64,000 nucleotides of DNA, from contig OZ253580.1 in NCBI GenBank assembly GCA_965263035.1, forward strand, positions 128,001-192,000. The letters are read 5' to 3'. How positions within the stretch are numbered: the first letter of the stretch is position 1; each line of letters starts with the position of its first letter. Of this stretch, positions 3,001-39,995 are shown one piece after another. This DNA comes from Acidobacteriota bacterium. GTDB taxonomy: Bacteria; Acidobacteriota; UBA6911; RPQK01; JAJDTT01. The notes below the pieces were generated by a model, which was not told where the DNA came from, did not search any database, and was given only the letters and a program-made list of their open reading frames with translations. A program made the translations under genes and the position numbers.

Positions 3001-5479
3001 CGTCATCGATGATCGTGATCGTCTGCTCGGCGCCGATCGTGCCGCCCCCATGACTGGCCGTGATCAGGATCGTCTCGGCATCATCGTCGACCCTGTCTTG
3101 TACGGCTGTGACGGTGGTCGCAACCGAGCTCTGCCCCGCGGTGAGCGTGAGACTCTCCAACGCCACCGTGTAGTCCGTGCCCTTCGTCGCCGTGCCCGCA
3201 AAGGAGAGTGCGATCTCCTGATCCTCCGCGAAGGTGACGCCGTTGGTGATCTCAACCGTCACCATCGCGCTTCCACCCGCCTCTACGATCGCCGCTGGAG
3301 AAGCCGCCAGGGTCAACTCCGGGGCGGTGTTGACCAACTGGCGAGTGAAGGTCAGGGTCGCGATCGGCTCGTTCGAGAACTTGCCCATCCCCCGCAGGCT
3401 CGTGATGGTTTCCGGCGGCGAGGTCGCGGAGTTATTCAGCGAGAACTCGGTTCCCTCCTCGGTTCCGGCATCCCACGGATACAGGTTCACCGTGCGCGAT
3501 GCCAACCAGTCGCCTTGCGCATCGAGCAGGGACAGCCCGGAGACGCCCACGAACCAGTCCGGGCTCGGCGCCACCATCGTGAGCAGGGTGACCCGGGGAT
3601 GGTCGGTTGTGAGCGTGACCATGTTGATGGTTGACGAGCCTGTCGGGCCGATATTGCCGCCGCTGCTCTGAAGGACGCTGAGCGCATTCGGTGCGGCGGC
3701 CCGGATCTCACTCGCCAGGGTGCTCGTTCCGCCGAGTTCCGCCATGGACTCGACCCCCGCGCTGGCCATGCCGCCCTCTCTCAGGAAGGTCACGCCGGCG
3801 TTGTAAACACCGCCGATCAGGGTCGTGAAATGCGCTCCGGAGGGAAGGCCGTCGGAGGTGACGGTGGTGGTCCAGGTTCCCTGGAAGGTCACGCTGTAGG
3901 TGGCCGCAGACTTGACCGCGGCCACCGGATCGCTCTCCGGCGGGTTCAGCCACATATTGGGCAGCGCCGTCGTCTCCGCCGTCTTCTCCACCAGGGCACT
4001 GCGAGTCGCCTCGCCGCCCGCGACCACCGTCGCAACCTGGTACGTGTTGGTCGTGCCGGCGGTCACGTCGGTTTCGGTGAAGGTCAAAACCCTGAGGCCC
4101 CCGTCGAGGGTGTCCGAGGTGGCGCCGTCGTCGCGGGTCAGTCTGTAGGTGACGCTTGGCGGCGGGTCCCAGTGACTCACCGTCACCGGGGTCCAGGTCA
4201 GGGCCACCTGCGTCGGCCCGGCCGTCGCCGTCAGGGTCGGCCCTTCCCGAAGCTGGTAGCCGAACTCCTGCCACGTCGCGGTTCCGCTCTCATCGAAGTC
4301 CGTCTTGAGCGCCGGGTACTGGGCGTCCGTTCCGAAGTGCCAGGGATCGTCCGAGGTGCCGTCGTTGTTCAGGTCCACGTTCCAGTCCGCATAGATGCCA
4401 CTGTAGCCCGTGGGCGCCTGCAACTGTGCCGTTGTCTGACCGGTCCCGTCGCCGATTCCGTAGGTCTCCCGGCCCGCTGCAGGACTCGAGCTGATCTCGA
4501 TCCTGCGCACCGCCGGCCCCGGCGGGACCGTCAACGGCTTGGTCTCGGACTCGATCCGGAGCATCCCTCCGGAGACTGCCGCGCGCAGCGCTTCCGGTGA
4601 GGTGTGGTGGAATCCACCGGCCGCCTCCAGGATCAGAGCGACCATTGCCGCCGCTTCGGGCAGAGGCGCCGACGCCCCGCAAAAGGTCTCGAAATCCGGA
4701 TTGGCCGCGCTCACGCACGTCGCCGAGGAAAGATCAGATTTCGATCCGGCCGAATCCCCGGTTCTCGAAAAATCGTTTGGCGCCGACCGGCCTGGAAGGA
4801 ACTCTCTTTCCCAGATCCCGGCCTGATTCTGACCGCCGGCCGCAGAGACGTAGACACAACCATTGCGGACCGCCGCCTTGACCGCCTGGGCCTGGAGGCC
4901 GCCTTGACCGATCGTCGTCTGGTAATCGAAAAGATCGTCGACGATGACGTCCGCGCCCGCTTGGCAGAGCGCCTCGAGGTTGGCGGCGAACCGCGCCGGC
5001 CCACCCAGACCGGTCGCGAAGTAGAGGTCGGCCCCCGGGGCCAGGTCGTGGAGGATCGAGAGGGTCGCCGTCCCGTCGTCGCCTTCGCCCGCCTGCCCCG
5101 GCAACACCGTCACCCGGTCCCGCAGGTCCTCCGCCGCCTCACCGGCCATAACCGCGGCCACGCCGGTCGAGAGCACGCCGATCCCGACGCCCGTGCCGTC
5201 GACACTCTGACGCCGGCGTAGCGCAGCCAGTTGCTGCGATGCGCGATCCCGGGACGGACGGACCCTTCGATGCGCGATCTCGTCCTTCGGGCCCGTCCAC
5301 TCAACGGACGGGAACTCCGGCCACGGCTGCTTGATCGGCCGACTGGCCTGCTTCGGGATCCCGCCGACAACGGTCGGTGGTGGGTGCTGGGACCAGATCG
5401 GCTCCACCCACAGAGAAGTCGCCACCAACACCCCGAGGGCCCAGCACGTGTTTCCTGTCCAGCGTGGCTGCCGCATCAT
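1..5479 (-). CDS. Giant modular surface protein, 3' end outside window (>1820 aa): signal peptide, degenerate S8 subtilase-like domain, FN3-like, Spondin_N, Calx/Ig-like, choice-of-anchor B, SwmB-like, second Spondin_N, cadherin, start of a PQQ glucose/sorbosone dehydrogenase-like propeller
   Basis: ATG at 5479 (MMRQPRWTGNTCWALGVLVATSLW). The same frame reads DPSFASSRRFYTCQGH at the window edge, and the ORF track lists no closed ORF in this frame. Motifs read manually include TYSVTFQGTW..GAHFTTLIG (spondin), NDIWGWTD..KEYAIMG..HDAQCV..WSNYPFF (anchor B) and LTLTYGEALD..IRDAAGN (SwmB). Confidence 0.85.
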   Translation of the reverse strand, partial: MMRQPRWTGNTCWALGVLVATSLWVEPIWSQHPPPTVVGGIPKQASRPIKQPWPEFPSVEWTGPKDEIAHRRVRPSRDRASQQLAALRRRQSVDGTGVGIGVLSTGVAAVMAGEAAEDLRDRVTVLPGQAGEGDDGTATLSILHDLAPGADLYFATGLGGPARFAANLEALCQAGADVIVDDLFDYQTTIGQGGLQAQAVKAAVRNGCVYVSAAGGQNQAGIWEREFLPGRSAPNDFSRTGDSAGSKSDLSSATCVSAANPDFETFCGASAPLPEAAAMVALILEAAGGFHHTSPEALRAAVSGGMLRIESETKPLTVPPGPAVRRIEISSSPAAGRETYGIGDGTGQTTAQLQAPTGYSGIYADWNVDLNNDGTSDDPWHFGTDAQYPALKTDFDESGTATWQEFGYQLREGPTLTATAGPTQVALTWTPVTVSHWDPPPSVTYRLTRDDGATSDTLDGGLRVLTFTETDVTAGTTNTYQVATVVAGGEATRSALVEKTAETTALPNMWLNPPESDPVAAVKSAATYSVTFQGTWTTTVTSDGLPSGAHFTTLIGGVYNAGVTFLREGGMASAGVESMAELGGTSTLASEIRAAAPNALSVLQSSGGNIGPTGSSTINMVTLTTDHPRVTLLTMVAPSPDWFVGVSGLSLLDAQGDWLASRTVNLYPWDAGTEEGTEFSLNNSATSPPETITSLRGMGKFSNEPIATLTFTRQLVNTAPELTLAASPAAIVEAGGSAMVTVEITNGVTFAEDQEIALSFAGTATKGTDYTVALESLTLTAGQSSVATTVTAVQDRVDDDAETILITASHGGGTIGAEQTITIIDDDPTTCSGGMAGTYPCSNVDLMSFLALADIGGGSANDIWGWTDSSTGKEYAIMGRTNGTSFVDISDPLNPIYLGNLPRRSANSTFRDIKVYADHAFIVTEANNSGMQVFDLTQLRTVASPPATFSETAHYPDFLLAHNLVINEDSGFAYAVGTNTCSGGLHMINIQTPTSPTSAGCFSDDGYTHDAQCVNYDGPDLDHQGKEICFNSNVDTLTIVDVTNKADPVMLARKGYSGSRYTHQGWLTEDQAYFLLGDELDEKNNPDVTNTRTYMWDVSDLDEPALIGSHDSTTTAIDHNLYVKGKYTYQSNYYAGLRILDLTDIANGNLSEAAFFDFNPGSDPTNTRGGTWSNYPFFDSGIVIVSVIEQGLFILRPNLVDVVNPALASAAVNGVALTLTYGEALDESSTPATDAFTVTVAGDGRTVTHVSVSGRVVTLTLASVVAHHETVTVGYSPGTNPIRDAAGNAAIGLSNRSVTNETPETALPNMWLNPPASDPVAAVKSAATYSVTFQGTWTTTVTSDGLPSGAHFTTLIGSVHNAGVTFLREGGMASAGVELMAELGRTSTLANEVRAAEPDALSVVQGSGGNIGPTGSSTINMVTLGTDHPRVTLLTMVAPSPDWFVGVSGLSLLDAQGDWLASRTVNLYPWDAGTEEGTEFSLNNSATSPQETITSLRGTGKFSNEPIATLTFTRQSVNTAPSFSSGTSFETDENQTAAATLTATDPDSGDGVAYAITGGADASKFDIGETTGVLTFKVPPNYERAADVASTDPPNEAGNNEYIVAVTATGGAAERALTVGQTITVSVRNVEEAGTVSFSQVGAAIGARLSDPDGGVSSAAWQWARSSERSTGWTNISGATSARYTPSSGDQEMYLRATVSYDDGHDSGKQAQGISSSEIAPLDLQVDTLVSGLSIPWGIAFAPDGTMLFTERSGVLSSRLTDGTVQTVTADFSDLFAIGETGLMGIVVDPSFASSRRFYTCQGHSGPELQVITWTVNADYTQATRV
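921..1564 (-). repeat. Spondin-domain coding repeat (copy nearer the gene 3' end)
   Basis: Near-identical to 3324-3967, offset 2403 bp. Confidence 0.9.
3324..3967 (-). repeat. Spondin-domain coding repeat (copy nearer the gene 5' end)
   Basis: Near-identical to 921-1564. Confidence 0.9.
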
Positions 5480-11283: not shown

Positions 11284-12270
11284 CTAGACCGAAGTTCCAG
11301 CCACGAAGACAAGATAACCCCTTGATTATAAAGGGATCAGTCACGAATCCGCCTTGGTCGTCACTGGGAACGCTGTGACCAACTCCAGAGCCCGTCGTTG
11401 CAGCCTCGGACCGTCCGGGGCCGAGGCGGTTCGGCACTGGTGACGGGCACGTGTTCCCATCTCCGCCATCAGCGTGTGGAAGCTCTGGATCGGCAGTCCG
11501 TCCTCGGTTCGCCGCTCCGTCTTCTTCCGTTTGGCCGATGCCGACGGCTGGGCTTTCAGCACTGGATCCCGTCGAGCGCGGTGCGCGTCCAGGTCCTCGT
11601 CATCGAACAGCAACGGGGCCAGGGCCCGGCGCAAATGCCCCTCCACATAGTAGGACAGCAGGCACAGGAACAGGTGCGACCGCACCCGCGCCTCCGCCCG
11701 GTGACGGATGGGACGGATCTGCAAGTCCACGGTCTTCAGAGAGCGGAAGGCTCGCTCCACGTGCGTCAGGTTCTTGTAGCTGCGCACCACATCGGCGGTC
11801 GGCAGCCGCTCTTCCGGTTCGCTGGTGCGGATGATGTAGAAGCCGTCCAGTTGCGCCTCCCGGGCGACGGCTGCGGTGCGCCGGGCGTACTCGAAGCGCC
11901 CGTCTTCGATCACCAGCTCAAAGTGCTTGGCCACTTTGTACCGGTTCTTGACCCGACCCACCTTCTCGGCGATCTGGGGCGCCAGCAGAGGCGTCTGGGT
12001 GCGCCGGGCCACCTCCCGGGCGATCTTGCCCAGCTCCTCTTCCGTGGCCGCCACCAGGTTCTCGCGTTTGCGGCGCCGATACTCCCCCAGCAGCGGGTTG
12101 TGGCAGACGACGAGCCGTTCGCCCGGATAGGCCTCGGTCCGGATCTCCGCCAAGTGACGCTCGTCGAAGATCGAGAGCTGAACCGCTTTGGTTTCCACCA
12201 GTTCGCGGATCGCCGTATGCCGCAGGGCCGAGATCCAACCCAGTCCCGGATGGCGCTTCAGATGCTTGAA
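11284..12270 (-). mobile_element. IS1634-family element, 5'-truncated
   Basis: LDGFYIIRTS..YKNLTHVERAFRSLKT..IRPIRH..RVRSHLFLCLLSYYVE; end GAACTTCGGTCTAG at 11284-11297. Confidence 0.85.
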
Positions 12271-12352
12271 GGGGACTCTTTCGGATTCAGAGATCGGGTC
12301 TCCACGAATCTGAGACGGGTGTAGGTCCCAGATCCAGGGTCGTAGCTGAACA

Positions 12353-12381
12353 GGTCCATCCCCGCCTGTGCGGGGGAAACC
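12353..12381. CRISPR. Solitary type I-E-like CRISPR repeat (no array, no cas genes in window)
   Basis: 29 bp GGTCCATCCCCGCCTGTGCGGGGGAAACC with CCCCGC-N4-GCGGGG hairpin. Confidence 0.7.
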
Positions 12382-12999
12382 GATCCGGTTCTGGTGGAAC
12401 CGTTTTGGCCCGATCTTTGCCGCCGAGCTCCGCAAGAAACGGACAGGTCGAATGCGTGCGTTGTCGGCTTGGCGGTGGCACCTTGATGAGGTGTTCGTGA
12501 AAATCAATGGCGAACGCCATTACCTGTGGCGTGCCGTGGACCAGGAAGGCGAGGTGCTGGAGGCCTTTGTCTCGAAGAAGAGAGACCGCAAGGCCGCTTT
12601 GAAATTCCTCAGGAAACTGAGGAAGCGCTACCCCCCCAGGCCGGATGCGATCATCACGGATCGGCTGAGGTCTTACCGCGCGGCCTTGCGTGAACTGGGC
12701 GGATCCAGTCTGCATCAAGCTGGCCGATGGCTGAACAATCGTGCGGAGAATTCCCCCCTGCCGTTCCGGCGGCGAGAACACGCGAGGCTCCGTTTCAGGC
12801 GGATGCGAAGCCTCCAGAATTTTACCACCGTCCATTCTTCCGCCTACAACCACTTCAACCTGCGACGACCTCTCTGTTCACGGGACACTTTCAAGCTCAA
12901 CCGCGCCGCTGCACTTGCCCAGTGGCGTCAACTCGGGGCGGCCTAATTCCCTGTCCCCGGTGGAATAACTCAGACCTGCGATTTTACTCTGACAGTGCC
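12382..12999 (+). mobile_element. IS6-family transposase fragment (N-terminus and left end missing) with right TIR
   Basis: IRFWWNRFGP..WHLDEVFVKING..YLWRAVDQEG..LNNRAENS; end CTCTGACAGTGCC at 12999. Confidence 0.9.
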
Positions 13000-13107
13000 T
13001 TGCCGACTGGTCGGGAAGCAAAAGAGGCGGGTGCGTGGAACTCAAAGGATATTTTTGCAGCAATTTGGACAGTACCTTGAGCAGGCACTTCAGGCGGGCA
13101 TCCCCTC

Positions 13108-14376
13108 CTATCGATCACCCAAGGCTTCCGCCTGCCGTTCGAAGCTCTTATCGACCACTGCGGAACCAATCGAATCGCCGAAGACGTTCACCGCCGTCCT
13201 GAAACGATCTAGGAGCCAGTCGACCGACAGGATCAGCCCGATATATTCGACAGGTAATCCGACCGCGTTCAACACGATCACCATCGTGACCAGCCCGGCT
13301 TCGGGAATGCCCGCGGCTCCGATAGCCGCCATGGTAGCAGTGACGGCAATCACAAGCTGCGAGGTGATCGTGAGCTCAAACCCAATCGCCTGTGCGATGA
13401 ATATGGCAGCCGCGGCCTCATAGAGGGCGGTGCCATCCATATTGATCGTGGCACCCAAGGGAAGAACGAAATCGGAGGATTGTTTCGATACCTTGGCCTT
13501 TTCGACAGCACAATTCATCGTGATCGGCAGCGTTGCCGTTGAACTTGCAGTTGAAAAGGCCGTCAGTAGAGCCTGGGACATCTGGTACATGAAACGGAAC
13601 GGGTTCCTTCGGGTGAAGATCCACAGGATCAAGGGAAGCGTTAAAAATGCATGGACCCCCAGCCCGGCAAGGACCGTTCCAAAGTACGCTCCAGTCTGTT
13701 GCAGAACCGCTCCCAGATTTCCCCCAGCCTGGGCTTCACCAAAGCGGGCAGTCACCAGGCAGAAGATTCCGAACGGGGCCAGTTTCATCAGCAACAGGAT
13801 GAACGACAAGAGCGCTTCGTTGACTTGGACGATTATCTTGGTAAGCGCCTGGACTCGGGTGCCCATTGTCGTGAGCATTCCGGCAAAGATGATCGAGAAG
13901 AAAATCAGCGGTAGCAGGCTGGTCTTGGCTGCCGACTCGATCAGGTTGTCGGTAAAGAGCATCAGGACCAAGCCCCGAAGGATTGTTCCCAGGTCCGCAT
14001 CTTCCCGGCCAGCAGTGCTCACCTGACCCTCCGCGAGGCTCGCGTCCAGGGTCGTCTGGTCGACACCGACACCAGGTTGAATCAAATTCACCATAAGCAG
14101 ACCCACGATCACAGCCAGGACGGTTGTCATCAGGTAGTAGGTCACCGCAAAACCGCCGGGGCGGCCCAGTTTTCGAATGTCGCCGAGTCCAATGATGCCG
14201 CTCATCACGCTGGCCATCACCAGCGGAACGACCATCATCGTGAGCAGGTTGAGGAAGATCTCACCCCCAAGCTCGAACTGCATTGCAAATCCCGGAGCAA
14301 AAACAGCCAGGAGGATGGCCACAACAATCGCAACGGCGATGTACAAGGTCAGACGGCTCTTCGGTTTATCGGGCAT
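13108..14376 (-). CDS. Dicarboxylate/amino acid:cation symporter (DAACS, GltP/SDF family), copy 1
   Basis: AFSTASSTATLP, LPLGATINMDGTALY, GAAGIP, DWLLDRFRTAVNVFGD; multiple TM helices. Confidence 0.95.
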   Translation of the reverse strand: MPDKPKSRLTLYIAVAIVVAILLAVFAPGFAMQFELGGEIFLNLLTMMVVPLVMASVMSGIIGLGDIRKLGRPGGFAVTYYLMTTVLAVIVGLLMVNLIQPGVGVDQTTLDASLAEGQVSTAGREDADLGTILRGLVLMLFTDNLIESAAKTSLLPLIFFSIIFAGMLTTMGTRVQALTKIIVQVNEALLSFILLLMKLAPFGIFCLVTARFGEAQAGGNLGAVLQQTGAYFGTVLAGLGVHAFLTLPLILWIFTRRNPFRFMYQMSQALLTAFSTASSTATLPITMNCAVEKAKVSKQSSDFVLPLGATINMDGTALYEAAAAIFIAQAIGFELTITSQLVIAVTATMAAIGAAGIPEAGLVTMVIVLNAVGLPVEYIGLILSVDWLLDRFRTAVNVFGDSIGSAVVDKSFERQAEALGDR

Positions 14377-14762
14377 TGTGTAACCTCTCCGAGTTCGATG
14401 CGACGACTCTGCTTTCGCTTGGCGGCGATGAACCATCATTATGCTCTTGCCAAGCCTGAAAAAACTAGCGAACGAGCATCGCTGCGTTCCGAGGACAAGA
14501 ATCGGCCCTCAAAGGCCGCTCAACGGCCCCGAGTGGTTCTTACTCTGGCAGCCGTGGGAAAATGGATAGGAGGAGGCTGTTAGTACTCTACTTAAAGTTC
14601 TGCCCTTCAGTATCGCGGACAAACTATTCGACGGCATCCGGCGGCAGATCGAGATCGACTTTCCAGCCCAGATCCGCCAATCTCAGAACGCCCGCCGCAT
14701 AGAAGAGAAAAGCAATGGTCAGGACGGCCAGCACCCGCATACCAGCCGATAGGCATCCAGTA

Positions 14763-14892
14763 GGTGCTGTCAAGTTAAGTAGAATTCTCGGGTTTTGGAG
14801 GCGAAATCGGCCGTAGGCCTAACGTAGAATCAACAACTTAGGGAGTGGCCAAGGCGCTGAGCAGGAACCAAATCGGTTAACTTGACGGTACC
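14763..14892. mobile_element. 130-bp MITE with IS6-type ends
   Basis: TIRs GGTGCTGTCAAGTTAA / TTAACTTGACGGTACC; no transposase; no TSD seen. Confidence 0.65.
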
Positions 14893-15079
14893 GCCGGTTC
14901 CTTTCGGCGGGTCGGCAATGTCCAGTCTACAGCATGGACTAAAGGTGCCGATCCAGCGCCATGTCGCGTCCTCATCCTCGTCGCTGTTCTCGTCGAGCAC
15001 CCGGGGCTCGGCCACCAACATCCGGTCGCCGGAGGACGTCCCCACTGCGTACGGAGTGAGGGGGGAAAAGCGACACCTC

Positions 15080-15713
15080 CTAAAACGTAGTCGGGTCGCC
15101 AACCGCGGTCGCGATTCCATCGAACGATGAGGGCACGGCAGGCCCCGCGCCCAGGCTGATTGTCGTCCCATCCAGAGGGGTTATGGCAATTTCGGCGCTT
15201 CTCGTGTGCCCAACCGGAACCGTGATTTCAGATACGCCGGTCGGCAGCATTCCCCCAGTCGCGCTGATCGTCGTCGTCATGTCGAACGGCGCACCTTCAG
15301 GAACCACGACCACCACTCGGTTCGTGTTGTGAACACGCTGGATCGTCATGGTGAAATTGAAGTCCGCGCCCGGATTCGTCTCCAGGTACAGGGCCTCCAG
15401 ACTGGTGAGACCCGAAAACACACCTGCGGGCAACGTCTGCAACCGGTTGTTTGCCAGGTCCAGCCACTCAACGTCAAGACTGGCGAAGACCCTGTCCTCC
15501 AGCGTCGCCAATTGGTTGTGTGACAGATCCAACGTCAGGCTACCGCTGAGTGAATCGAACATCCCGGCCGACAGTGTTCGGAGCTGATTCGCCTCCAGGC
15601 CGAGGAATCTGAGGTTTAGCCCGGCGAACAGCCCGGAGGGTAATGTGGTCAGGTTATTGTACTCCAGATCCAGAATGTCCATGCTGGCGAGACCGTCGAA
15701 CAAGTTGCCTGGC
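15080..15713 (-). pseudogene. 3' fragment of a leucine-rich-repeat surface protein
   Basis: Repeats of LxxLxLxxNxLxxLPxxxFxGL; the 5' end is fused to the tRNA-adjacent non-coding segment. Confidence 0.8.
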
Positions 15714-16119
15714 AAGGGCCGGCCAACTCCCGCATCCTGGCGTTTCGAGGCGGATGTGTGCATGCCGGGCGTGGACGGGCTTCGGATTCCATTATGGGAT
15801 TCAGTCTGCCTGTTGACGTGTGCCGTTGATGCGGCCCGTCCCTGGAAGGGCATGGGAACCTTGGAGGTTGCGGATCAAACCGGGCCCCTGTTCAGAGACT
15901 TGGAGAGTTCTCCAGCAAATGAGTCCTCAACTCCTACCGGATTCTTGCTCCCGGTTCCGCAGGGCGCGAATGCGGACTAGGAGGACGACCCACTGGCCGC
16001 CATGCAATCGGATCTTAAGTCCCTGGGCGGCGACTTGGCCCCAGTGGTGACGACGGCGGCGGGCTTTGGGGAGGGCCGGGGCGCGGTTCCTCAGAAGGAC
16101 TGGATACCGTCCAGGCTAG

Positions 16120-16278
16120 GAGCCTGCGCCGCAGAAATTGATCTACTGCGAAAGCGGTAGAATCGGTCCATATTTCCTCGATTTCTCGGCGAATAGAACA
16201 ACTATGCACCTCAAAATCGAGAAAATCTGGCCTCGATTCCCCACTTTCTCGCTACGATCATTTCTACCGCGCAGCCTC
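16120..16278 (+). mobile_element. MITE family 1, copy A
   Basis: 159-bp core, TIRs GAGCCTGCGCCGCAGAAAT / ATTTCTACCGCGCAGCCTC, CTAG on both sides. Confidence 0.9.
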
Positions 16279-16282
16279 CTAG

Positions 16283-18053: not shown

Positions 18054-18315
18054 CTAGGACCGGCACTACCGGAGGGATTTTGTATGCTTCGAGAGGACCT
18101 GGGCCGGTCGGTCCTGGCGGCGTGCGGAACTCCTCCGAGTTTGTATCTCGATGCAGACGGGGTGCCTTAAAGGGAGGCAATGAGGCGCTGGCCACGTCGG
18201 GGCCTCTGGCAGGTGGATAGCCGAGCGCTCGGTATCACTTCTGTTATTTAAAGTGATAATATTTTTTCCGAACTCCTAAAATATTATTTATTTCTAGTGA
18301 TTTATAAAAATTGGA

Positions 18316-18405
<90 letters not shown>

Positions 18406-21854: not shown

Positions 21855-23027
21855 ATGAAGAGACCACGGATACTGTCTGCGGCTTTTATCCGGAATGTCA
21901 ATCGGCCTGGACGCTATGGCGACGGGCGCGGTGGGCATGGATTGAGCCTTCTCGTCAAGCGTACCGCAAACGGGCGACTCTCGAAAACCTGGGCGCTGCG
22001 GCTCCGAAAGCATGGCAAACCGTTCAACGTCGGGTTGGGCATCTACCCGCTTGTGACGCTGGCCGAAGCTCGACAGGCTGCACTCGCCAACCGGCGGGCT
22101 TTGGTGCAAGGCCACGACCCGCGGGGTGGCGGCATTCCGACATTCGAGCAAGCCGCCGAAAAGGTCATCCGAATCCATGCGGCGACGTGGACGCCCGGCG
22201 GCAAATCTGAGGTGCAATGGCGGGCAAGTCTTCGCGACTACGCCATGCCGATACTCGGCCACATCCGGCTGGACAAGATCACGACGGCTGACGTGCTAGC
22301 CGTGCTCCTCCCAATCTGGAACGAGAAGCGGGAGACGGCTCGACGGGTGCGGCAACGCATCGGCGCCATCATGAAATGGGCGGTGGCTCAGAACTACCGT
22401 CAAGACAATCCAGCCGGGGAAGCCATCGGCGCCGCTCTGCCGAAAAACGGCGTTCATCGCCAGCACCACAAGGCGCTCCCGCATGGTGAAGTCGGGGCCG
22501 CAATTCAGAAGGTTCGACAGTCGGGCGCCTACCGGGCCACGGTGCTCGCGTTCGAGTTCATTGTGCTGACGGCTTGCCGCTCCGGTGAGGTTCGGGGCGC
22601 CCGGTGGAAGGAAGTGGACCTTTCGACGGCGACTTGGACCATACCGGGCAAGCGAATGAAAACTAGGCGGGAGCACCGGGTTCCATTGTCGAAACGGGCC
22701 CTGCAAATTCTGAACGAGGCGCTGGCATTCGCGGACGGTTCCGGGCTGGTGTTTCCGTCTCTGACCGGACGGACCTTGAGTGATTCGACGATTTCCAAGC
22801 TACTCAGAGAAATCGGTATCCCGGCGGTGCCGCATGGCTTCCGGTCCAGTTTCCGCGACTGGTGCGGCGACAACGGGACGGCGCGAGAAGTCGCGGAAGC
22901 GTGCCTAGCGCACACCGTCAAGGGTGTTGAAGGTGCATATTTTCGGAGTGACCTCTACGCGCGGCGGGCAATTCTTATGGAGAAATGGGCGCAGTATCAA
23001 TGTATGGAACTCAGTAAGACTCTATGA
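21855..23027 (+). CDS. P4-like tyrosine integrase with N-terminal arm-binding domain
   Basis: GRYGDG..GLSLLV..GLGIYPLVTLAEAR; TACRSGEV, PHGFRSSFRDW, LAH, AY. Confidence 0.95.
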   Translation: MKRPRILSAAFIRNVNRPGRYGDGRGGHGLSLLVKRTANGRLSKTWALRLRKHGKPFNVGLGIYPLVTLAEARQAALANRRALVQGHDPRGGGIPTFEQAAEKVIRIHAATWTPGGKSEVQWRASLRDYAMPILGHIRLDKITTADVLAVLLPIWNEKRETARRVRQRIGAIMKWAVAQNYRQDNPAGEAIGAALPKNGVHRQHHKALPHGEVGAAIQKVRQSGAYRATVLAFEFIVLTACRSGEVRGARWKEVDLSTATWTIPGKRMKTRREHRVPLSKRALQILNEALAFADGSGLVFPSLTGRTLSDSTISKLLREIGIPAVPHGFRSSFRDWCGDNGTAREVAEACLAHTVKGVEGAYFRSDLYARRAILMEKWAQYQCMELSKTL

Positions 23028-23172: not shown

Positions 23173-23566
23173 GTGTACATCGAACCTCAGATTCTCCGCA
23201 TCCACGAAATTTGCCGAGTTGTCGGTCTGAGCAAGCCGACCGTTTACCGCGAGATGAAGCGGGGCACATTTCCGCCGCCGATTCGACTAGGAGTCTGCGC
23301 GGTAGGAATGATCGTAGCGAGAAAGCGGGGAATCGAGGCCAGATTTTCTCGATTTGGAGGTGCATAGTCGTTCTATTCGCCGAGAAATCGGGGAAATATG
23401 GACTGATTCTACCGCTTTCGCAGTAGATTAATTTCTGCCGCGCAGGCTCCTAGGCAAGCGGGCCGTCGGCTGGCGGCGGTCTGATATCCAAGAGTGGCTT
23501 GACTCCAGGCCATCGTCAACCAGCGAGAGTCGGGGCTGTGCCGATGAATGTAGTTCAGTTTCCTGA
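23173..23566 (+). pseudogene. alpA: AlpA-family regulator/excisionase interrupted by a MITE
   Basis: Removing the MITE and one CTAG restores ILRIHEICRVVGLSKPTVYREMKRGTFPPPIRLGKRAVGWRRSDIQEWL. Confidence 0.85.
23291..23449 (-). mobile_element. MITE family 1, copy B
   Basis: Reverse-complement copy with CTAG on both sides. Confidence 0.9.
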
Positions 23567-24767: not shown

Positions 24768-24840
24768 TAGGAGCAATCGATTCCCATGTCTCAGAAAAAG
24801 CGTTTTTCCATACTATATTGAAAAGCATTGAAGCACCTAT

Positions 24841-26836: not shown

Positions 26837-26854
26837 CCTATTGATTTGACGCCA

Positions 26855-27316: not shown

Positions 27317-27560
27317 TGGTTCCCGTCCGGTTCCTTGGAGTCTAACGACAATCCCTGACTACGAATCCCGTTGACTTCAGAGGTCCCCGGCCAGCGTCCA
27401 GGGCCAGGAATCGGCCTGATTCCGGCCAGATTACCGCCAGGGGCTTGACGCCTTCTCCCGGCTCCTGATAGCAGTTACCGGCAGTCGGATTTCAGATAAT
27501 TTCAGTTAACGGACGTAGAGTGTCCATCAGGGGAGACCGACCAAATCAGAGCGGCGGTCG

Positions 27561-27589
27561 GGTCCATCCCCGCCTGTGCGGGGGAAATC
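27561..27589. CRISPR. Solitary type I-E-like CRISPR repeat, copy 2
   Basis: GGTCCATCCCCGCCTGTGCGGGGGAAATC, one mismatch to 12353-12381. Confidence 0.7.
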
Positions 27590-28207
27590 GATCCGGTTCT
27601 GGTGGAACCGTTTTGGCCCGATCTTTGCCGCCGAGCTCCGCAAGAAGCGGACAGGTCGAATGCGTGCGTTGTCGGCTTGGCGGTGGCACCTTGATGAGGT
27701 GTTCGTGAAAATCAATGGCGAACGCCATTACCTGTGGCGTGCCGTGGACCAGGAAGGCGAGGTGCTGGAGGCCTTTGTCTCGAAGAAGAGAGACCGCAAG
27801 GCCGCTTTGAAATTCCTCAGGAAACTGAGGAAGCGCTACCCCCCCAGGCCGGATGCGATCATCACGGATCGGCTGAGGTCTTACCGCGCGGCCTTGCGTG
27901 AACTGGGCGGATCCAGTCTGCATCAAGCTGGCCGATGGCTGAACAATCGTGCGGAGAATTCCCCCCTGCCGTTCCGGCGGCGAGAACACGCGAGGCTCCG
28001 TTTCAGGCGGATGCGAAGCCTCCAGAATTTTACCACCGTCCATTCTTCCGCCTACAACCACTTCAACCTGCGACGACCTCTCTGTTCACGGGACACTTTC
28101 AAGCTCAACCGCGCCGCTGCACTTGCCCAGTGGCGTCAACTCGGGGCGGCCTAATTCCCTGTCCCCGGTGGAATAACTCAGACCTGCGATTTTACTCTGA
28201 CAGTGCC
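27590..28207 (+). mobile_element. IS6-family transposase fragment, copy 2
   Basis: Duplicate of 12382-12999. Confidence 0.9.
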
Positions 28208-28315
28208 TTGCCGACTGGTCGGGAAGCAAAAGAGGCGGGTGCGTGGAACTCAAAGGATATTTTTGCAGCAATTTGGACAGTACCTTGAGCAGGCACTTCA
28301 GGCGGGCATCCCCTC

Positions 28316-29584
28316 CTATCGATCACCCAAGGCTTCCGCCTGCCGTTCGAAGCTCTTATCGACCACTGCGGAACCAATCGAATCGCCGAAGACGTTCACC
28401 GCCGTCCTGAAACGATCTAGGAGCCAGTCGACCGACAGGATCAGCCCGATATATTCGACAGGTAATCCGACCGCGTTCAACACGATCACCATCGTGACCA
28501 GCCCGGCTTCGGGAATGCCCGCGGCTCCGATAGCCGCCATGGTAGCAGTGACGGCAATCACAAGCTGCGAGGTGATCGTGAGCTCAAACCCAATCGCCTG
28601 TGCGATGAATATGGCAGCCGCGGCCTCATAGAGGGCGGTGCCATCCATATTGATCGTGGCACCCAAGGGAAGAACGAAATCGGAGGATTGTTTCGATACC
28701 TTGGCCTTTTCGACAGCACAATTCATCGTGATCGGCAGCGTTGCCGTTGAACTTGCAGTTGAAAAGGCCGTCAGTAGAGCCTGGGACATCTGGTACATGA
28801 AACGGAACGGGTTCCTTCGGGTGAAGATCCACAGGATCAAGGGAAGCGTTAAAAATGCATGGACCCCCAGCCCGGCAAGGACCGTTCCAAAGTACGCTCC
28901 AGTCTGTTGCAGAACCGCTCCCAGATTTCCCCCAGCCTGGGCTTCACCAAAGCGGGCAGTCACCAGGCAGAAGATTCCGAACGGGGCCAGTTTCATCAGC
29001 AACAGGATGAACGACAAGAGCGCTTCGTTGACTTGGACGATTATCTTGGTAAGCGCCTGGACTCGGGTGCCCATTGTCGTGAGCATTCCGGCAAAGATGA
29101 TCGAGAAGAAAATCAGCGGTAGCAGGCTGGTCTTGGCTGCCGACTCGATCAGGTTGTCGGTAAAGAGCATCAGGACCAAGCCCCGAAGGATTGTTCCCAG
29201 GTCCGCATCTTCCCGGCCAGCAGTGCTCACCTGACCCTCCGCGAGGCTCGCGTCCAGGGTCGTCTGGTCGACACCGACACCAGGTTGAATCAAATTCACC
29301 ATAAGCAGACCCACGATCACAGCCAGGACGGTTGTCATCAGGTAGTAGGTCACCGCAAAACCGCCGGGGCGGCCCAGTTTTCGAATGTCGCCGAGTCCAA
29401 TGATGCCGCTCATCACGCTGGCCATCACCAGCGGAACGACCATCATCGTGAGCAGGTTGAGGAATATCTCACCCCCAAGCTCGAACTGCATTGCAAATCC
29501 CGGAGCAAAAACAGCCAGGAGGATGGCCACAACAATCGCAACGGCGATGTACAAGGTCAGACGGCTCTTCGGTTTATCGGGCAT
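28316..29584 (-). CDS. DAACS-family symporter, copy 2
   Basis: Same protein as 13108-14376. Confidence 0.95.
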   Translation of the reverse strand: MPDKPKSRLTLYIAVAIVVAILLAVFAPGFAMQFELGGEIFLNLLTMMVVPLVMASVMSGIIGLGDIRKLGRPGGFAVTYYLMTTVLAVIVGLLMVNLIQPGVGVDQTTLDASLAEGQVSTAGREDADLGTILRGLVLMLFTDNLIESAAKTSLLPLIFFSIIFAGMLTTMGTRVQALTKIIVQVNEALLSFILLLMKLAPFGIFCLVTARFGEAQAGGNLGAVLQQTGAYFGTVLAGLGVHAFLTLPLILWIFTRRNPFRFMYQMSQALLTAFSTASSTATLPITMNCAVEKAKVSKQSSDFVLPLGATINMDGTALYEAAAAIFIAQAIGFELTITSQLVIAVTATMAAIGAAGIPEAGLVTMVIVLNAVGLPVEYIGLILSVDWLLDRFRTAVNVFGDSIGSAVVDKSFERQAEALGDR

Positions 29585-29888
29585 TGTGTAACCTCTCCGA
29601 GTTCGATGCGACGACTCTGCTTTCGCTTGGCGACGATGAACCATCATTATGCTCTTGCCAAGCCTGAAAAAACTAGCGAACGAGCATCGCTGCGTTCCGA
29701 GGACAAGAATCGGCCCCCAAAGGCCGCTCAACGGCCCCGAGTGGTTCTTACTCTGGCAGCCGTGGGAAAATGGATAGGAGGAGGCTGTTAGTGCTCTACT
29801 TAAAGTTCTGCCCTTCAGTATCGCGGACAAACTATTGGACGGCATCCGGCGGCAGATCGAGATCGACTTTCCAGCCCAGATCCGCCAA

Positions 29889-31155
29889 TGACCTTGCCCC
29901 CTAAAACGAGTCCAGTTTGAATGTTAGGATTTTCGGTTTAGGAAGGAGGCAAGGATGGCACGGAAGCGGTTTACGGCAGAATAGATCATTATGAAGCTGC
30001 GTGAGGCAGAGGTGGGTCTGGCCCAAGGACAGACGGTGGGACAGGTGTCGAAGCAGATCGGGGTGACCGAGCAGACCTACTACCGGTGGCGCAAAGAATA
30101 CGGAGGGCTGCGGATGGACCCGGCCAAACGGTTGAAGACCTTAGAGCAGGAGAATACCCGGTTGAAGAAGCGGGTAGCGGATCTGTCTTTGGACCAGCAG
30201 ATCCTGAAGGAAGTGGCCTCGGGAAACTTCTAGGCCCGGCGAAAAGGAGACGCGCCGTGGTGTGGGTACGAGAGAGATCAGGAGCCGAGCGAGTTTCCGA
30301 ACGTCGGGCCTGTCGAGTGCTGGGGCAGGGTCGGTCGACCCAGCGAAGGGAAAGGCATGTTCGCGATGATGAGGCCCGATGGGTGGCCGAGATCGTGGAT
30401 TTGGCCACCCAATAGGGCCGGTACGGATACGGAAGGACCACGGCAATACTTCATCGGAAAGGGTGGAAGGTAAATCACAAGCGGGTCGAGAGGCTCGAGA
30501 GACAGGAGGGGCTGAAAGTCCCGTCCCGACAGCCAAAGCGAAGGAGACTATGGTTTCATGATGGATCCTGTGTTCGGTTACGAGCGGCTCCTAAGGATCA
30601 GGTCTGGAGCTATGACTTTGTCCCTGAGCGAACCCATGATGGACGGGCCTTTCGGCTGTTGACCCTCCTGGATGAGACCACTCGAGAGTGCCTGACGATT
30701 CATGCCAAACGACAGATGAATCATCAGGACGTGTTGGACCGATTGGCGGAGTTGTTCGTGAATCGGGGAGTACCGGAATACGTTCGATCTGATAACGGTT
30801 CAGAGTTCACAGCACAGGCGGTCAGGGATGGGCTCAAGGCTGTAGGGGGGAAGACGTTGTACCTCGAGCCCGGTAGCCCCTGGGAGAACGGGTATGTGGA
30901 GAGCTTCAATGGAAAACTCCGGGATGAGTTGCTGAATCTGGAGGTCTTCGACACGCTGTGGGAGGCGAAGGTATTGGCCGAGAGATGGCGTCGGGAGTAC
31001 AACCAACGTCGGCCTCACAGCGCCTTGGCCTATCGGCCTCCGGCGCCAGAGGCCAAACTCCCCAGGTCGCAGGCATTGGGTCCTATCCCTTGGAGTGGCC
31101 TTCAAATGGTCCCGGGGCTAACTTAGAGGGTGATACCACTCGTGGGGGCAGGTCA
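29889..31155 (+). mobile_element. IS3-family (IS407-like) element with nonsense mutations
   Basis: TIRs TGACCTTGCCCCC / GGGGGCAGGTCA. orfA MARKRFTAE* has a premature TAG near 29980. orfB has a TAG at 30413-30415 and carries WSYDF, RSDNGSEF and WENGYVESFNGKLRDE. Confidence 0.9.
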
Positions 31156-31194: not shown

Positions 31195-32730
31195 GTGATC
31201 AACCAAAACACAGAGGCTGCGTGGGAATATCACAACGCCACCAAGCATTCGCCGTCGAGTGTCCGGGCCAATACACACCGTATGGATTGGTCCATCAAAC
31301 CCCTTCCGTTCAAGATTTACCCCAAACTGGAGCCGATCCGGCTGGATCCGTCGATTGCCGGAACCGAAGTTCCGGCTCTTGTGGCCCTGTCGGCCACCGA
31401 GGTCGACTCGGAAACCGAAGCCGCTCCGAACCTCGAGCAGCTGGGGCAGTTGCTGTACCTTTCGGCGGGTGTCACTAAGAAAGTCGATTATCCGGGCGGG
31501 ACCCAGTACTTCCGTGCCGCATCCTGCACGGGCGCACTCTATGAGTTCGAGTTGTACATCGTATGCGGCGATCTCAATGGGCTCGACGCAGGCGTTTACC
31601 ACTTCGGTCCAGGCGACTTGAGCCTTCGCCGACTGCGCGAAGGCGATTATCGGGGTGTGCTGGCCGGGGCAGCCGGAAATAATCCGGCCATCGCCGGCGC
31701 TGCTGCGGTCCTCATCTGCACCGGCACTTACTGGCGGAACGCCTGGAAGTATCAGGCTCGAACGTACCGTCATTTTGGCTGGGATAACGGCACGATTGTT
31801 GCGAACACGCTGGCCGTTGCCGAGGCTCTCGGTCTCCCGGCGCAAGTGACGTGTGGTTTCATCGACGCTGATGTCAATCGTCTGCTCGACCTCGACACGG
31901 AACACGAGGTGGCGTTTTCGATGATTCCGCTGGGGAGTCAATCCGTTTCCCAACCAGCGTCTCCAAAGCACATTCCACCACTGAATCTTGAGACGGTACC
32001 GCTTTCAGAGAGCGAAGCGCAATACCCCCAGATGACCCGGATGCACGAGGCGTCGTCGCTCGGGAGTATTGAGGAGGTCGTGGCCTGGAGCGGACACACG
32101 CCGGTCGGCTCGGGACCGTCCTTAATAAACGGAACTATTTCTCTCTTGCCGCCGCCTGACAGTCAGATATCCAAAGACAGCATCGAGACAGTGGTCCTGC
32201 GACGTGGATCAACACGGCAGTTCGACCGGGTGTCGATAGAGGCCAAGCAGTTAGGGACAATGCTCCACTGTGCGACGCGGGGCATTCGGGCGGACTTTCT
32301 CTCTCGCTTCGGTTCGTTCCTGAACGACGTTTATCTGATCGTGAACGCCGTGGACGGAATCAAACCCGGCGCGTATGTGTACCATCATGAAGAGAACAAG
32401 CTGGAGCTTTTGAAGGAAGGGGATTTCCGTGGCGTGGCCTCACACCTGGGGTTGGACCAATCGCTTCCCGGCGACGCCAGTATCGCCGTCTTCTTTTTGG
32501 CGGACCTCGCCCCAATTCTCCGGCGGTTTGGAAACCGCGGATACCGTGCTGTGCAGCTTGAAGCCGGGATCCTCGGTGGGAAACTCTACCTGGGGGCCTA
32601 CGCCCAGCGTCTCGGCGCGACGGGACTCACCTTCTACGACGACGAAGTCATCGAGTTCTTCTCACCCCACGCCGCCGGCAAGAGTGCAATCTTCTTGATG
32701 GCGCTGGGCAAGAGCGTCAAGCGCGGTTAG
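31195..32730 (+). CDS. SagB/ThcOx-family dehydrogenase (tandem nitroreductase domains)
   Basis: YHNATKHS, FRAASCTGALYEFELY, WKYQARTYRH, RRGSTRQF, RGYRAVQLEAG, GLTFYDDEV. Confidence 0.85.
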   Translation: MINQNTEAAWEYHNATKHSPSSVRANTHRMDWSIKPLPFKIYPKLEPIRLDPSIAGTEVPALVALSATEVDSETEAAPNLEQLGQLLYLSAGVTKKVDYPGGTQYFRAASCTGALYEFELYIVCGDLNGLDAGVYHFGPGDLSLRRLREGDYRGVLAGAAGNNPAIAGAAAVLICTGTYWRNAWKYQARTYRHFGWDNGTIVANTLAVAEALGLPAQVTCGFIDADVNRLLDLDTEHEVAFSMIPLGSQSVSQPASPKHIPPLNLETVPLSESEAQYPQMTRMHEASSLGSIEEVVAWSGHTPVGSGPSLINGTISLLPPPDSQISKDSIETVVLRRGSTRQFDRVSIEAKQLGTMLHCATRGIRADFLSRFGSFLNDVYLIVNAVDGIKPGAYVYHHEENKLELLKEGDFRGVASHLGLDQSLPGDASIAVFFLADLAPILRRFGNRGYRAVQLEAGILGGKLYLGAYAQRLGATGLTFYDDEVIEFFSPHAAGKSAIFLMALGKSVKRG

Positions 32731-33323: not shown

Positions 33324-33326
33324 CTA

Positions 33327-39899: not shown

Positions 39900-39995
39900 T
39901 GGCGGAGGAGGTGGGATTCGAACCCACGTGCCCGGCTCATCACCGGACAACCCGATTTCGAGTCGGGCCCGGTACGTCCACTTCGGTACTCCTCC
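39900..39995 (-). tRNA. tRNA-Ser(CGA)
   Basis: CCCGA-CTCGAAA-TCGGG anticodon arm, long variable arm, GGTTCGAATCC..CTCCGCCA. Confidence 0.95.

What the first reader, a model, noticed from the sequence alone, without database searches (positions are those of the whole stretch)
12353..14681. A solitary CRISPR I-E repeat is the exact endpoint of a 2.33-kb block present in both islands
Seen: identity between 12353-14681 and 27561-29889 starts at the first base of a 29-bp I-E-like repeat, and the sequence to its left is unrelated in the two copies. On the other side the repeat is fused to a headless IS6 transposase through a probable GAAAC microhomology (where ETIRFWW would be encoded), followed by an intact DAACS transporter. 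No cas genes are in the window. Known: Cas1-Cas2 joins DNA precisely at repeat borders, and solitary repeats on mobile elements can act as RNA anti-CRISPRs (Racr). Inference: the repeat served as a recombination or integration site that moved kb-scale cargo, possibly by aberrant Cas1-Cas2 activity or repeat-repeat recombination, and/or it is an expressed decoy.
Basis: partly seen in the sequence, partly recalled or inferred. Interest (0 to 1): 0.8.

Follow-up and report, generated by a model that had tools for sequence, protein, structure and literature searches.

The report
Leftover CRISPR repeat bordering duplicated transporter cassette
A lone CRISPR repeat that starts a twice-present 2.3-kb block is a real leftover of a decayed CRISPR array fused to a broken insertion sequence and a transporter gene, which is mostly ordinary genome decay with one curious detail: both edges of the repeat are recombination joints.

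Summary
Window 12353-14681 and 27561-29889 differ at 7 of 2329 bases, and identity starts at the first base of a 28-nt repeat.

That repeat is identical to the repeat of this genome's own 16-repeat type I-E array, which sits beside a complete cas operon 1.95 Mb away.

Copy 2 keeps 64 bp of the array's trailer flank (93% identical over a 91-nt alignment that includes 27 nt of the repeat). It is therefore the last repeat of a second, decayed CRISPR locus in a paralogous integrase island. Similar scars exist at 5.66 Mb in this genome and in a same-genus genome.

The rest of the block is an 813-bp IS6-family element missing its first 198 bases, plus a DAACS transporter. Another family of the same order holds this unit at 92% identity.

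The repeat/IS6 joint is blunt, with at most 1 nt of overlap. The proposed GAAAC microhomology fails. The right end of copy 2 is an IS3-family insertion.

Copy 1's left flank is an orphan 83 bp of unknown origin.

My best reading is array relic plus imported cassette, later copied between islands with a crossover in the repeat. Cas1-Cas2 joining and a decoy RNA remain untested.

The parts
11285..12269 (-). 3' part of a DDE (IS4/IS5-type) insertion sequence, cut off internally at 12269
   Evidence: PF01609 hit. It is 89.8% identical to G000 990210-991221, where the open frame runs on to 538 codons. All copies in relatives stop matching at 12269.
12270..12352 (.). 83-bp orphan flank ('X') to the left of the copy-1 repeat; origin unknown
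   Evidence: No match elsewhere in G000, in 20 relatives or in the 75 other genomes of the order (1 of 76 matched, the genome itself). Exact sub-strings are absent from viral and metagenome contigs.
12353..12380 (-). Solitary type I-E CRISPR repeat, copy 1 (functional orientation on the minus strand)
   Evidence: 28 of 28 identical to the repeats of the native array. Hairpin of -20.3 kcal/mol. The Rfam CRISPR-DR28 match is below threshold (20.8 bits against 35).
12381..12999 (+). IS6-family element lacking its first 198 nt (left inverted repeat and N-terminal part of the transposase); right inverted repeat ends at 12999
   Evidence: It is 93% identical to intact 813-bp copies in other genomes of the order.
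13108..14439 (-). DAACS (sodium:dicarboxylate symporter family) transporter gene, copy 1
   Evidence: NCBIfam DctA/GltP-like hits below the equivalog cut-offs. PF00375 matches the copy-2 product.
14682..14762 (.). 81 bp beyond the duplication that still match the outgroup cassette (ancestral right flank, kept only in copy 1)
   Evidence: G020 locus L004 aligns to window 12383-14762; 78 of 81 bases are identical.
27497..27560 (.). Trailer-type flank of a CRISPR array, to the left of the copy-2 repeat
   Evidence: Window 27497-27587 is 93.4% identical to G000 2107992-2108081. The same flank lies beside the G002 array and the G007 lone repeat.
27561..27588 (-). Solitary type I-E repeat, copy 2 (27 of 28 identical; last base T)
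27589..28207 (+). Truncated IS6-family element, copy 2
28316..29845 (-). DAACS transporter open frame, copy 2 (509 codons as listed; the domain starts at residue 96)
   Evidence: PF00375, E 5e-115, profile positions 1-386 of 387
29889..31126 (+). Degenerate IS3-family element whose left end forms the right edge of copy 2
   Evidence: The OrfA-like frame 29991-30233 hits NF033516 (E 4.5e-13, below cut-off). The frame 30659-31126 hits rve and rve_3. Sequence. The joint is seen as a loose end in runs X1 and X5.
21855..23027 (+). Tyrosine integrase, paralog of the integrase beside the native cas3
   Evidence: Pfam Phage_integrase and arm-binding domains. It is 86.6% identical in protein to the integrase at G000 2118927-2120075.
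18316..18405 (-). tRNA-Ser(gga), at the right end of island 1
   Evidence: ARAGORN. The adjoining module 15714-16121 plus 18054-18344 is shared with the other islands.
39900..39995 (-). tRNA-Ser(cga), at the right end of island 2
   Evidence: ARAGORN. The adjoining module 39164-39928 is shared with the islands at 2.07, 2.90 and 5.65 Mb.

Best explanation
The lone repeat is a relic, not a new device.

This genome carries a family of about five related islands with shared modules. Three of them hold integrase paralogs, and the two in the window end at tRNA-Ser genes. One island still holds a complete type I-E CRISPR-Cas locus.

In the island holding copy 2, a sister locus lost its spacers, leader and cas genes. 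Only the trailer flank and one repeat are left.

An imported cassette became joined to the leader-side edge of that repeat in a single illegitimate event. The cassette is an IS6-family element plus a DAACS transporter, of the kind that IS26-like elements carry between genomes. The joining event removed the first 198 nt of the IS.

The fused unit (repeat, truncated IS6, transporter) was then copied to the neighbouring island about 15 kb away. I take the left crossover of that copy event to lie inside the 28-bp repeat, that is, recombination with another copy of the repeat. That would explain why identity begins exactly at the repeat edge.

An IS3-family insertion later trimmed copy 2 on the right, and an IS fragment now lies to the left of copy 1.

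Shown: the repeat's identity, the trailer homology, the truncation point, the foreign origin of the cassette, and the IS3 edge.

Inferred: the order of events, and the repeat-repeat crossover.
For: - Repeat identity: the repeat equals that of the native array with its I-E cas operon. The exact 26-mer occurs in only one other record of the species collection, a 13-repeat array. The repeat is therefore native to this genus and did not arrive with the cassette.
- Copy 2 keeps 64 bp of trailer flank (93% identical over a 91-nt alignment that includes 27 nt of the repeat). G002 has the same flank beside a full array. G007 has the flank plus one repeat followed by unrelated DNA. G003 has the copy-2-type upstream flank without a repeat.
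- A third scar in G000 at 5660583 has 22 of the first 23 repeat bases followed by a shortened trailer.
- There is only one cas operon in the genome.
- Islands share modules and integrase paralogs. The window holds two tRNA-Ser genes.
- The cassette is foreign. Its GC content is 57% against 62% for the genome. G020, of another family, holds IS6 plus transporter at 92% identity. Intact 813-bp IS6 copies occur in several genomes of the order. G000 holds no other IS6 DNA or protein.
- Copy 1 keeps 81 bp more of the ancestral right flank. The right edge of copy 2 is the end of an IS3-family element.
- Both copies carry their own derived substitutions (3 in copy 1, 2 in copy 2, 1 ambiguous; the seventh difference lies in the repeat's last base and has no outgroup counterpart). 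This indicates a real, recent duplication.
- Homologous recombination between a lone repeat and array repeats has been proposed in print for mobile elements (review PMC8616872 and Racr paper PMC10651486, passages read).
Against: - No second repeat, degenerate repeat or spacer-repeat periodicity lies to the left of copy 1. The 83-bp flank matches no trailer, leader or spacer in any collection searched. The partner repeat required for the crossover is therefore hypothetical.
- No homology that could have served as the right-hand crossover was found.
- The shared island modules are only 89-93% identical while the block is 99.7% identical. Whole-island duplication is therefore excluded, and a separate transfer event has to be assumed.
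- The repeat/IS6 joint falls within 0-1 nt of the repeat edge. Under a purely random deletion I estimate this at about 2 in 33, which is my own figure and not a tool result.
Confidence: 0.5

Rival explanations
1. Relic plus chance. The repeat is an array remnant as in the best explanation, but both joints are ordinary illegitimate or IS-driven breakpoints that happen to fall at the repeat edges. The repeat played no part in either joint.
For: - The region is a patchwork of broken mobile elements: a truncated DDE element, a truncated IS6, a degenerate IS3, IS1182 and IS1380 copies, and 6 copies of a 167-nt element in 64 kb.
- The other duplication edge is demonstrably an IS3 insertion.
- No partner repeat was found at copy 1.
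- The finding was picked out from a scan of very many windows, so a rare coincidence is to be expected somewhere.
Against: Two independent joints both lie within about 1 nt of the two edges of one 28-nt element. My rough joint chance is about 1 in 1000, which is my own estimate.
Confidence: 0.25
2. Spacer-protospacer recombination made the repeat/IS6 joint. The decayed array once held a spacer taken from the IS6 element (IS nt about 198-231). A circular IS6 translocatable unit or plasmid then recombined with that spacer, so the IS sequence starts exactly at the repeat edge with no microhomology.
For: - The joint is blunt and exactly where a spacer would begin.
- IS elements are natural CRISPR targets.
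- Recombination between spacers and their targets is documented for phages (Varble 2019 and Watson 2018, as cited in review PMC8616872; passage read, the original papers were not read).
- The array looks active in the population. Runs X1 and X15 hold spacers between repeats that are not in this genome's array (table 5c).
Against: - 0 of 27 spacers (15 from G000, 12 from G002) match the IS6 or the cassette.
- The bases at the expected PAM position read, on the crRNA strand, GAT or AGA rather than AAG. AAG is the E. coli I-E motif and is recalled from memory. The PAM of this system is unknown, and three spacer look-ups in viral contigs found nothing.
- No reciprocal product (IS6 head beside a repeat) exists in the genome.
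Confidence: 0.1
3. Cas1-Cas2 joined long DNA ends to the two edges of the repeat (aberrant or half-site integration), creating the joints.
For: - Both joints sit at the two phosphodiester positions that the I-E integrase attacks. This is established biochemistry, recalled, compared with the joints.
- An intact cas1 and a cas2-like frame are present.
- Spacer content varies between samples.
Against: - The hallmark of integration, a duplicated repeat on both sides of the insert, is missing. There is no further repeat in the window at up to 6 mismatches.
- The insert would be at least 2.3 kb rather than 33 bp.
- No leader lies beside either copy.
- I know of no in-vivo precedent. My four literature searches were not aimed at this, so its absence from print is not claimed.
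Confidence: 0.05
4. The lone repeats are kept because they are transcribed and act as decoys for Cas6e/Cascade (Racr-like), protecting the islands from the resident I-E system.
For: - The repeat is an exact or near-exact copy of the host's repeat, lies on integrase-bearing islands, and stands alone.
- The functional orientation is the same strand as the transporter gene 728 nt upstream, and no terminator-like site lies between them. Read-through transcription is therefore possible.
- I-E Racr candidates were shown to inhibit (PMC10651486, passages read).
Against: - The trailer homology shows that copy 2 is an array remnant, not a mimic evolved on a phage or plasmid.
- No promoter-like site lies upstream on that strand.
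- No recognisable anti-CRISPR or phage gene lies nearby: 0 families for the small flanking frames.
- No spacer of the resident array targets these islands, so there is no evident need for a decoy.
- No RNA evidence was obtained. The one RNA run laid gave contigs only and none informative for the repeat.
Confidence: 0.08

Closest known systems
Degenerate or orphan CRISPR loci (array remnants left after loss of cas genes)
   Same: A repeat identical to that of a resident system lies next to the conserved trailer flank, with cas genes and leader gone. Parallel scars occur in a paralogous island and in a related genome.
   Different: The array is reduced to a single repeat. That repeat is fused on its leader side to a truncated IS6, and it travels with a 2.3-kb cassette as a duplicated unit.
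Solitary repeat units / RNA anti-CRISPRs (Racr; Camara-Wilpert et al. 2023, PMC10651486)
   Same: An isolated repeat matches the subtype of the host's CRISPR-Cas system and is located on an integrative island.
   Different: Its origin as an array remnant is shown by the trailer flank. No promoter, no neighbouring acr genes and no expression data were found. It overlaps the start of a remnant transposase frame rather than lying in a clean intergenic gap.
IS26/IS6-family translocatable units (pseudo-compound transposons)
   Same: An IS6-family element and the adjacent transporter gene are shared as one unit at 92% identity with a genome of another family, which also has further IS6 copies in the same orientation nearby.
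   Different: Here the IS lacks its left inverted repeat and the N-terminal part of its transposase, and no intact IS6 exists in the genome. The local duplication therefore cannot have been made by IS6 transposition.
Mobile elements that use CRISPR repeats or arrays as targets (array-targeting Tn7-like elements, Mob DNA 2025, PMC11837452; abstract and outline read)
   Same: Foreign DNA sits at a fixed position relative to a CRISPR repeat.
   Different: Those elements insert within spacers and carry TnsABC/D genes and transposon ends. No such families appeared among the Pfam hits for the frames scanned around the two copies; I ran no search aimed at Tns genes or transposon ends.

Membership tests
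Type I-E CRISPR repeat | Same sequence as the repeats of an array that adjoins an I-E cas operon (cse1 and cse2 signature genes) | tested here: met
   28 of 28 (copy 1) and 27 of 28 (copy 2) bases match the 16-repeat array at 2108055-2108997. Cse1 TIGR02547 and Cse2 TIGR02548 pass their cut-offs. Cas1, Cas5, Cas6e, Cas7 and Cas3 were found.
Type I-E CRISPR repeat | Palindromic core able to form the Cas6e hairpin; 61-nt repeat-spacer period in the parent array | tested here: met
   Six-pair G-C-rich stem with a 4-nt loop, -20.3 kcal/mol, z -2.08. The period is 61 nt with 33-nt variable parts.
Type I-E CRISPR repeat | Match to a curated Rfam CRISPR-DR family | tested here: not met
   The best match is CRISPR-DR28 at 20.8 bits against a gathering score of 35 (E 0.17). 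Rfam holds only some repeat families, so this does not outweigh the array evidence.
Array remnant (decayed CRISPR locus) | Flank homologous to the trailer or leader of a full array | tested here: met
   Met for copy 2: 64 bp of trailer flank (93% over 91 nt including the repeat). Not met for copy 1: the flank has no homolog. No leader homolog exists anywhere else in the genome.
Solitary repeat unit / Racr | Repeat not associated with other complete or partial repeats | tested here: met
   No other repeat in the window at up to 3 mismatches or up to 6.
Solitary repeat unit / Racr | Intergenic, directly downstream of a promoter, expressed as a small RNA | tested here: inconclusive
   No sigma-70-like site on the functional strand between 12381 and 13107, but the consensus may not apply to this phylum. 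No usable RNA evidence was obtained.
Solitary repeat unit / Racr | Binding and processing by Cas6 and inhibition of interference | not testable with these tools
   This needs small-RNA sequencing, pull-down and interference assays.
Solitary repeat unit / Racr | Carried by a virus or plasmid, often beside acr genes | tested here: inconclusive
   It lies on an island with an integrase paralog. The small neighbouring frames hit no Pfam or PHROG family. No acr-specific library was available.
IS6-family insertion sequence (intact element) | DDE transposase of the IS6 family | tested here: met
   NF033587 at 130.7 bits against a cut-off of 125, but only profile positions 44-201 of 202. PF13610 was also hit.
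IS6-family insertion sequence (intact element) | Two terminal inverted repeats and a full-length transposase | tested here: not met
   The right inverted repeat is present at 12987-12999. The left inverted repeat and IS nt 1-198 are absent in both copies. It is a remnant and cannot move by itself.
Cas1-Cas2 integration product | Insert flanked by a duplicated repeat; insert of spacer length | tested here: not met
   There is one repeat per copy and no second repeat. The joined DNA is at least 2.3 kb.
Cas1-Cas2 integration product | Joints exactly at the repeat borders | tested here: met
   The left border is exact. The right border is within 0-1 nt.
DAACS / SDF transporter | Full-length sodium:dicarboxylate symporter domain | tested here: met
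   PF00375 positions 1-386 of 387, E 5e-115. The DctA and GltP models score below their equivalog cut-offs, so the substrate is not assigned.

The most novel reading that the evidence does not exclude
A lone CRISPR repeat is an active recombination substrate. The resident Cas1-Cas2 integrase (or a repeat-guided recombination step) joined kilobase-scale DNA to both borders of the repeat and so moved a transporter cassette between genomic islands. That would be an adaptation enzyme acting as a gene-shuffling integrase outside an array.
Probability: 0.06. Interest if true: 0.85.

Novelty: new member of a known kind. Interest (0 to 1): 0.3.

Why it matters
Mostly this is a cautionary and descriptive case.

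It shows step by step how a type I-E locus on an island decays to a single repeat in an IS-rich genome. It also shows that such relics can look like the 'solitary repeat units' that are now screened for as RNA anti-CRISPRs. The trailer-flank test used here separates relics from evolved mimics.

One point is worth keeping. Both borders of a 28-nt repeat are rearrangement joints, and the repeat now travels with a transporter cassette.

If repeat-repeat recombination is confirmed, CRISPR relics would count among the short portable homologies that shuffle cargo between islands. If the integrase were involved, that would be a new activity for Cas1-Cas2.

Tried and rejected
1. GAAAC microhomology. 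Rejected after aligning 6 intact IS6 loci with both window copies.

2. Intact IS6, or the missing IS6 head, elsewhere in the genome as a reciprocal product. None was found by blastn (word size 7) or tblastn.

3. Copy-1 flank X as an array remnant, trailer, leader, spacer or mobile-element end.
- No match in G000, in 20 relatives or in 75 other genomes of the order.
- No copy of its last 20 nt at up to 4 mismatches beyond chance-level hits.
- Exact sub-strings are absent from viral contigs and metagenome contigs.
- By eye, a 29-nt stretch next to the repeat shares its first 5 and last 4 letters with the repeat but only 12 of 28 overall. I did not count this as a repeat.

4. The same repeat/IS6 joint in other genomes. 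There were 0 hits in genome contigs and metagenome contigs; records of the window's own genome may be left out of those scans.

5. Synteny of island 1 in the genus. Window 14682-16115 matched 0 of 8 same-genus genomes, so no ancestral state could be read.

6. att-type direct repeats of the tRNA-Ser 3' ends within -28 to +87 kb. None found.

7. PAM of this system. Three newest spacers searched in viral contigs gave 0 hits. No self-targets were found. The PAM test of the spacer-recombination idea therefore stays open.

8. Leader remnants. None outside the native locus.

9. Anti-CRISPR or phage genes beside the repeats. No Pfam or PHROG family was found for 5 small frames.

10. RNA evidence.
- The runs on record as RNA held only small shares of the words (0.07-0.17).
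- The one RNA run laid (X15) gave contigs that cover the transporter with few differences but show neither strand nor the repeat joint. That is no evidence for or against transcription of the repeat.

Supplementary files of the Racr paper (lists of solitary repeats) were not seen and might list this repeat family.
Full report
**Observation**

Window 12353-14681 and 27561-29889 are a direct duplicate of 2329 bases with 7 mismatches. The sequence to the left of both copies is unrelated, and identity stops after 14681/29889. The first 28 bases occur only at these two places in the window, and none is expected in shuffles.

**The repeat is genuine and native**

The whole genome is one contig of 6.2 Mb, and the window is 128001-192000.
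- It holds 16 copies of the same 28-mer at a strict 61-nt period at 2108055-2108997. Thirteen copies are exact, and the three variant copies lie at the left end.
- Directly to the right, on the minus strand, lie cas1, cas6e, cas5, cas7, cse2, cse1 and cas3 (Pfam; Cse1 and Cse2 pass the NCBIfam I-E models). A cas2-like frame sits between cas1 and the array (read by eye).
- From the known layout of I-E loci (cas2, leader, array) and the degenerate repeats at the far end, the left flank is the trailer and the functional strand of the repeat is the minus strand.
- There is only one cas operon in the genome (tblastn).
- The exact 26-nt core of the repeat occurs in only one other record of the species-level collection, a 13-repeat array in a record titled as an Acidobacteriota MAG. 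Same-genus genome G002 has a 13-repeat array with the same repeat.
- The Rfam match (CRISPR-DR28) is below threshold. The repeat folds into the expected hairpin.

**Copy 2 is the last repeat of a decayed array**
- The 64 bp to the left of the copy-2 repeat belong to a 91-nt alignment (27497-27587 against 2107992-2108081) that is 93.4% identical and includes 27 nt of the repeat.
- The same flank borders the G002 array (93%). In same-genus genome G007 it borders a single repeat (2 mismatches) that is followed by unrelated DNA and lies next to tRNA-Leu and tRNA-Pro genes.
- G003 has the sequence further upstream of copy 2 (window 27401-27519, 80%) without a recognisable repeat.
- In G000 itself a third scar lies at 5660583: 22 of the first 23 bases of the repeat followed by a shortened trailer. 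A trailer-like stretch without a repeat lies at 3962013.
- No leader-like sequence exists outside the native locus.

**Island context**
- The integrase next to cas3 has paralogs at 2.93 Mb (99.5% protein identity) and in the window at 21855-23027 (86.6%).
- Several modules are shared, in different orders and orientations, between five regions: two in the window and those at 2.07-2.12, 2.90-2.93 and 5.65-5.67 Mb.
- Both window islands end at a tRNA-Ser gene (18316-18405 and 39900-39995), each preceded by a related module that is 89-93% identical.
- The CRISPR-Cas locus is thus cargo of a family of islands. It is intact in one, and reduced to trailer plus repeat in two.

**The cargo**

The bases after the repeat are nt 199-813 of an IS6-family element.
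- In six loci from other genomes of the order the element is 813 bp, with inverted repeats GGCAYTGTCAGAG.
- The remnant frame matches positions 44-201 of 202 of the IS6 transposase model.
- The genome has no other IS6 DNA or protein.

Downstream lies a full-length DAACS transporter gene on the minus strand.

G020, of another family in the order, holds IS6 plus transporter as one unit at 92% identity, with further IS6 copies nearby. By part, identity is 93.2% for the IS, 95.3% for the transporter region and 78 of 81 for the next 81 bp. The block has 57% GC against 62% for the genome.

The cassette is therefore imported, most likely as an IS26-type unit. That last step is inference from the known behaviour of this IS family.

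**The joints**

(a) Repeat/IS6.
- Intact elements read ...CACGAGAC|GATCCGG (encoding HETIRFWW). The window reads ...GGGGGAAAC|CGATCCGG.
- IS-derived sequence starts at the C or the G, so the joint is blunt or has 1 nt of overlap.
- The native leader also starts with C after the repeat. The joint may therefore sit at a former leader-repeat border.

(b) Left edge of copy 1.
- Identity with copy 2 starts at the first base of the repeat.
- To the left lie 83 bp with no homolog anywhere I could search, then a DDE element cut off internally at 12269.

(c) Right edges.
- Copy 1 runs on for 81 bp as in G020.
- Copy 2 is cut by the left end of a degenerate IS3-family element.
- The right edge of the duplication is therefore secondary.

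Each copy has its own derived substitutions relative to the outgroups: 3 in copy 1, 2 in copy 2 and 1 ambiguous; the seventh difference lies in the repeat's last base, where the outgroups have no counterpart.

**Independent data**

Twenty rows of public runs from nine studies hold part of window 12150-13150. Four runs were laid, all as contigs.
- A 286-nt contig of X1 (12094-12379) and a 142-nt contig of X6 (12239-12380) match with no differences across the 83-bp flank into the repeat. Only 27-28 nt of repeat lie beyond the joint, short of the tool's 31-nt rule.
- X1 and X5 show the IS3 sequence as a loose end at 14681, and X5 has a contig that runs through 14681 into the copy-1 flank.
- No listed contig bridges the repeat/IS6 joint.
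- Between repeats, X1 and the RNA-library run X15 hold spacers that are not in this genome's array. Arrays with this repeat therefore differ in spacer content between samples, which is compatible with ongoing spacer acquisition.

**Interpretation**

With high confidence (about 0.9) the lone repeat is a relic of a decayed I-E array, and the block is a relic-plus-imported-cassette fusion that was duplicated recently. What remains unexplained is why both borders of the repeat are joints.

My preferred reading is that the copy-1 edge reflects a crossover inside the repeat with another copy of the repeat. This kind of event has been proposed for solitary repeats on mobile elements (passages read in PMC8616872 and PMC10651486). 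On the same reading, the IS6 joint is a one-off deletion or illegitimate joint at the leader-repeat border. The weakness is that no partner repeat or array trace exists at copy 1.

The rivals are:
- pure coincidence in a heavily rearranged, IS-rich region;
- recombination between a former IS6-derived spacer and the IS, which is neat for the blunt joint but has no supporting spacer and a PAM position that does not read AAG (the E. coli motif, recalled);
- Cas1-Cas2 chemistry, for which the joints are in the right places but no repeat duplication, no leader and a wrong insert size argue against it;
- a decoy RNA, which is possible through read-through from the transporter gene since no terminator-like site lies between them, but has no promoter, no acr neighbours and no RNA data.

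**Comparison with known systems and novelty**

The closest known things are orphan or degenerate CRISPR loci and IS26-type cargo units. Solitary repeat units (Racr) are what it resembles in form but not demonstrably in origin or function. I file it as a new member of a known kind (array relic), with a low-probability, high-interest alternative.

Noticed in passing
window 16116-16282, 23287-23453, 33161-33327, 35785-35951, 54684-54850, 62805-62971: A 167-nt element with terminal inverted repeats (CTAGGAGCCTGCGC...GCGCAGCCTCCTAG). It has 6 copies in the window and 167 copies of at least 150 nt genome-wide, with a median identity of 97%. This is a very successful miniature transposable element.
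   Followed up: partly
G000:C1:6090239-6096082 (outside the window); window 24838-26844: The IS1380-family element of the window has about 20 copies in the genome at 94-99.6% identity. They include three head-to-tail copies in direct succession at 6.09 Mb.
   Followed up: no
G000:C1:5660583-5660640: A third CRISPR scar: the first 23 nt of the repeat (1 mismatch) followed by a shortened trailer, in the opposite orientation to the native array, with no cas genes or leader nearby.
   Followed up: partly
L024 1958-2051 (G000:C1:2108449-2108542): The native array holds the same 33-nt spacer twice in succession (spacers 7 and 8), a sign of repeat-spacer unit duplication by recombination within the array.
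   Followed up: no
window 12380-12353 (laid contigs of runs X1 and X15): Contigs of public runs hold spacers between copies of this repeat that are absent from this genome's array, including in a metatranscriptome library (table 5c). Arrays with this repeat differ in spacer content between samples.
   Followed up: no
window 31195-32730: A 511-residue protein with two SagB-type (nitroreductase-fold) peptide dehydrogenase domains lies just right of the IS3 remnant. It may be part of a peptide-maturation cluster.
   Followed up: no
window 12368-12946: The open frame of the truncated IS6 transposase now starts at a GTG inside the CRISPR repeat. A headless transposase of 192 residues lacking the N-terminal DNA-binding part could be made if the frame is transcribed.
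   Followed up: no
window 917-1564 and 3320-3967: A 648-bp direct repeat at 96% identity, 2.4 kb apart. Weaker relatives lie at 5.57-5.59 Mb and at 123-125 kb of the genome. It was not annotated.
   Followed up: no
window 12999-13055: Some contigs of runs X6 and X15 skip 55 bases between the IS6 right end and the transporter. This matches the shorter form seen in the G020 locus, so the spacer between the IS and its cargo is polymorphic.
   Followed up: no
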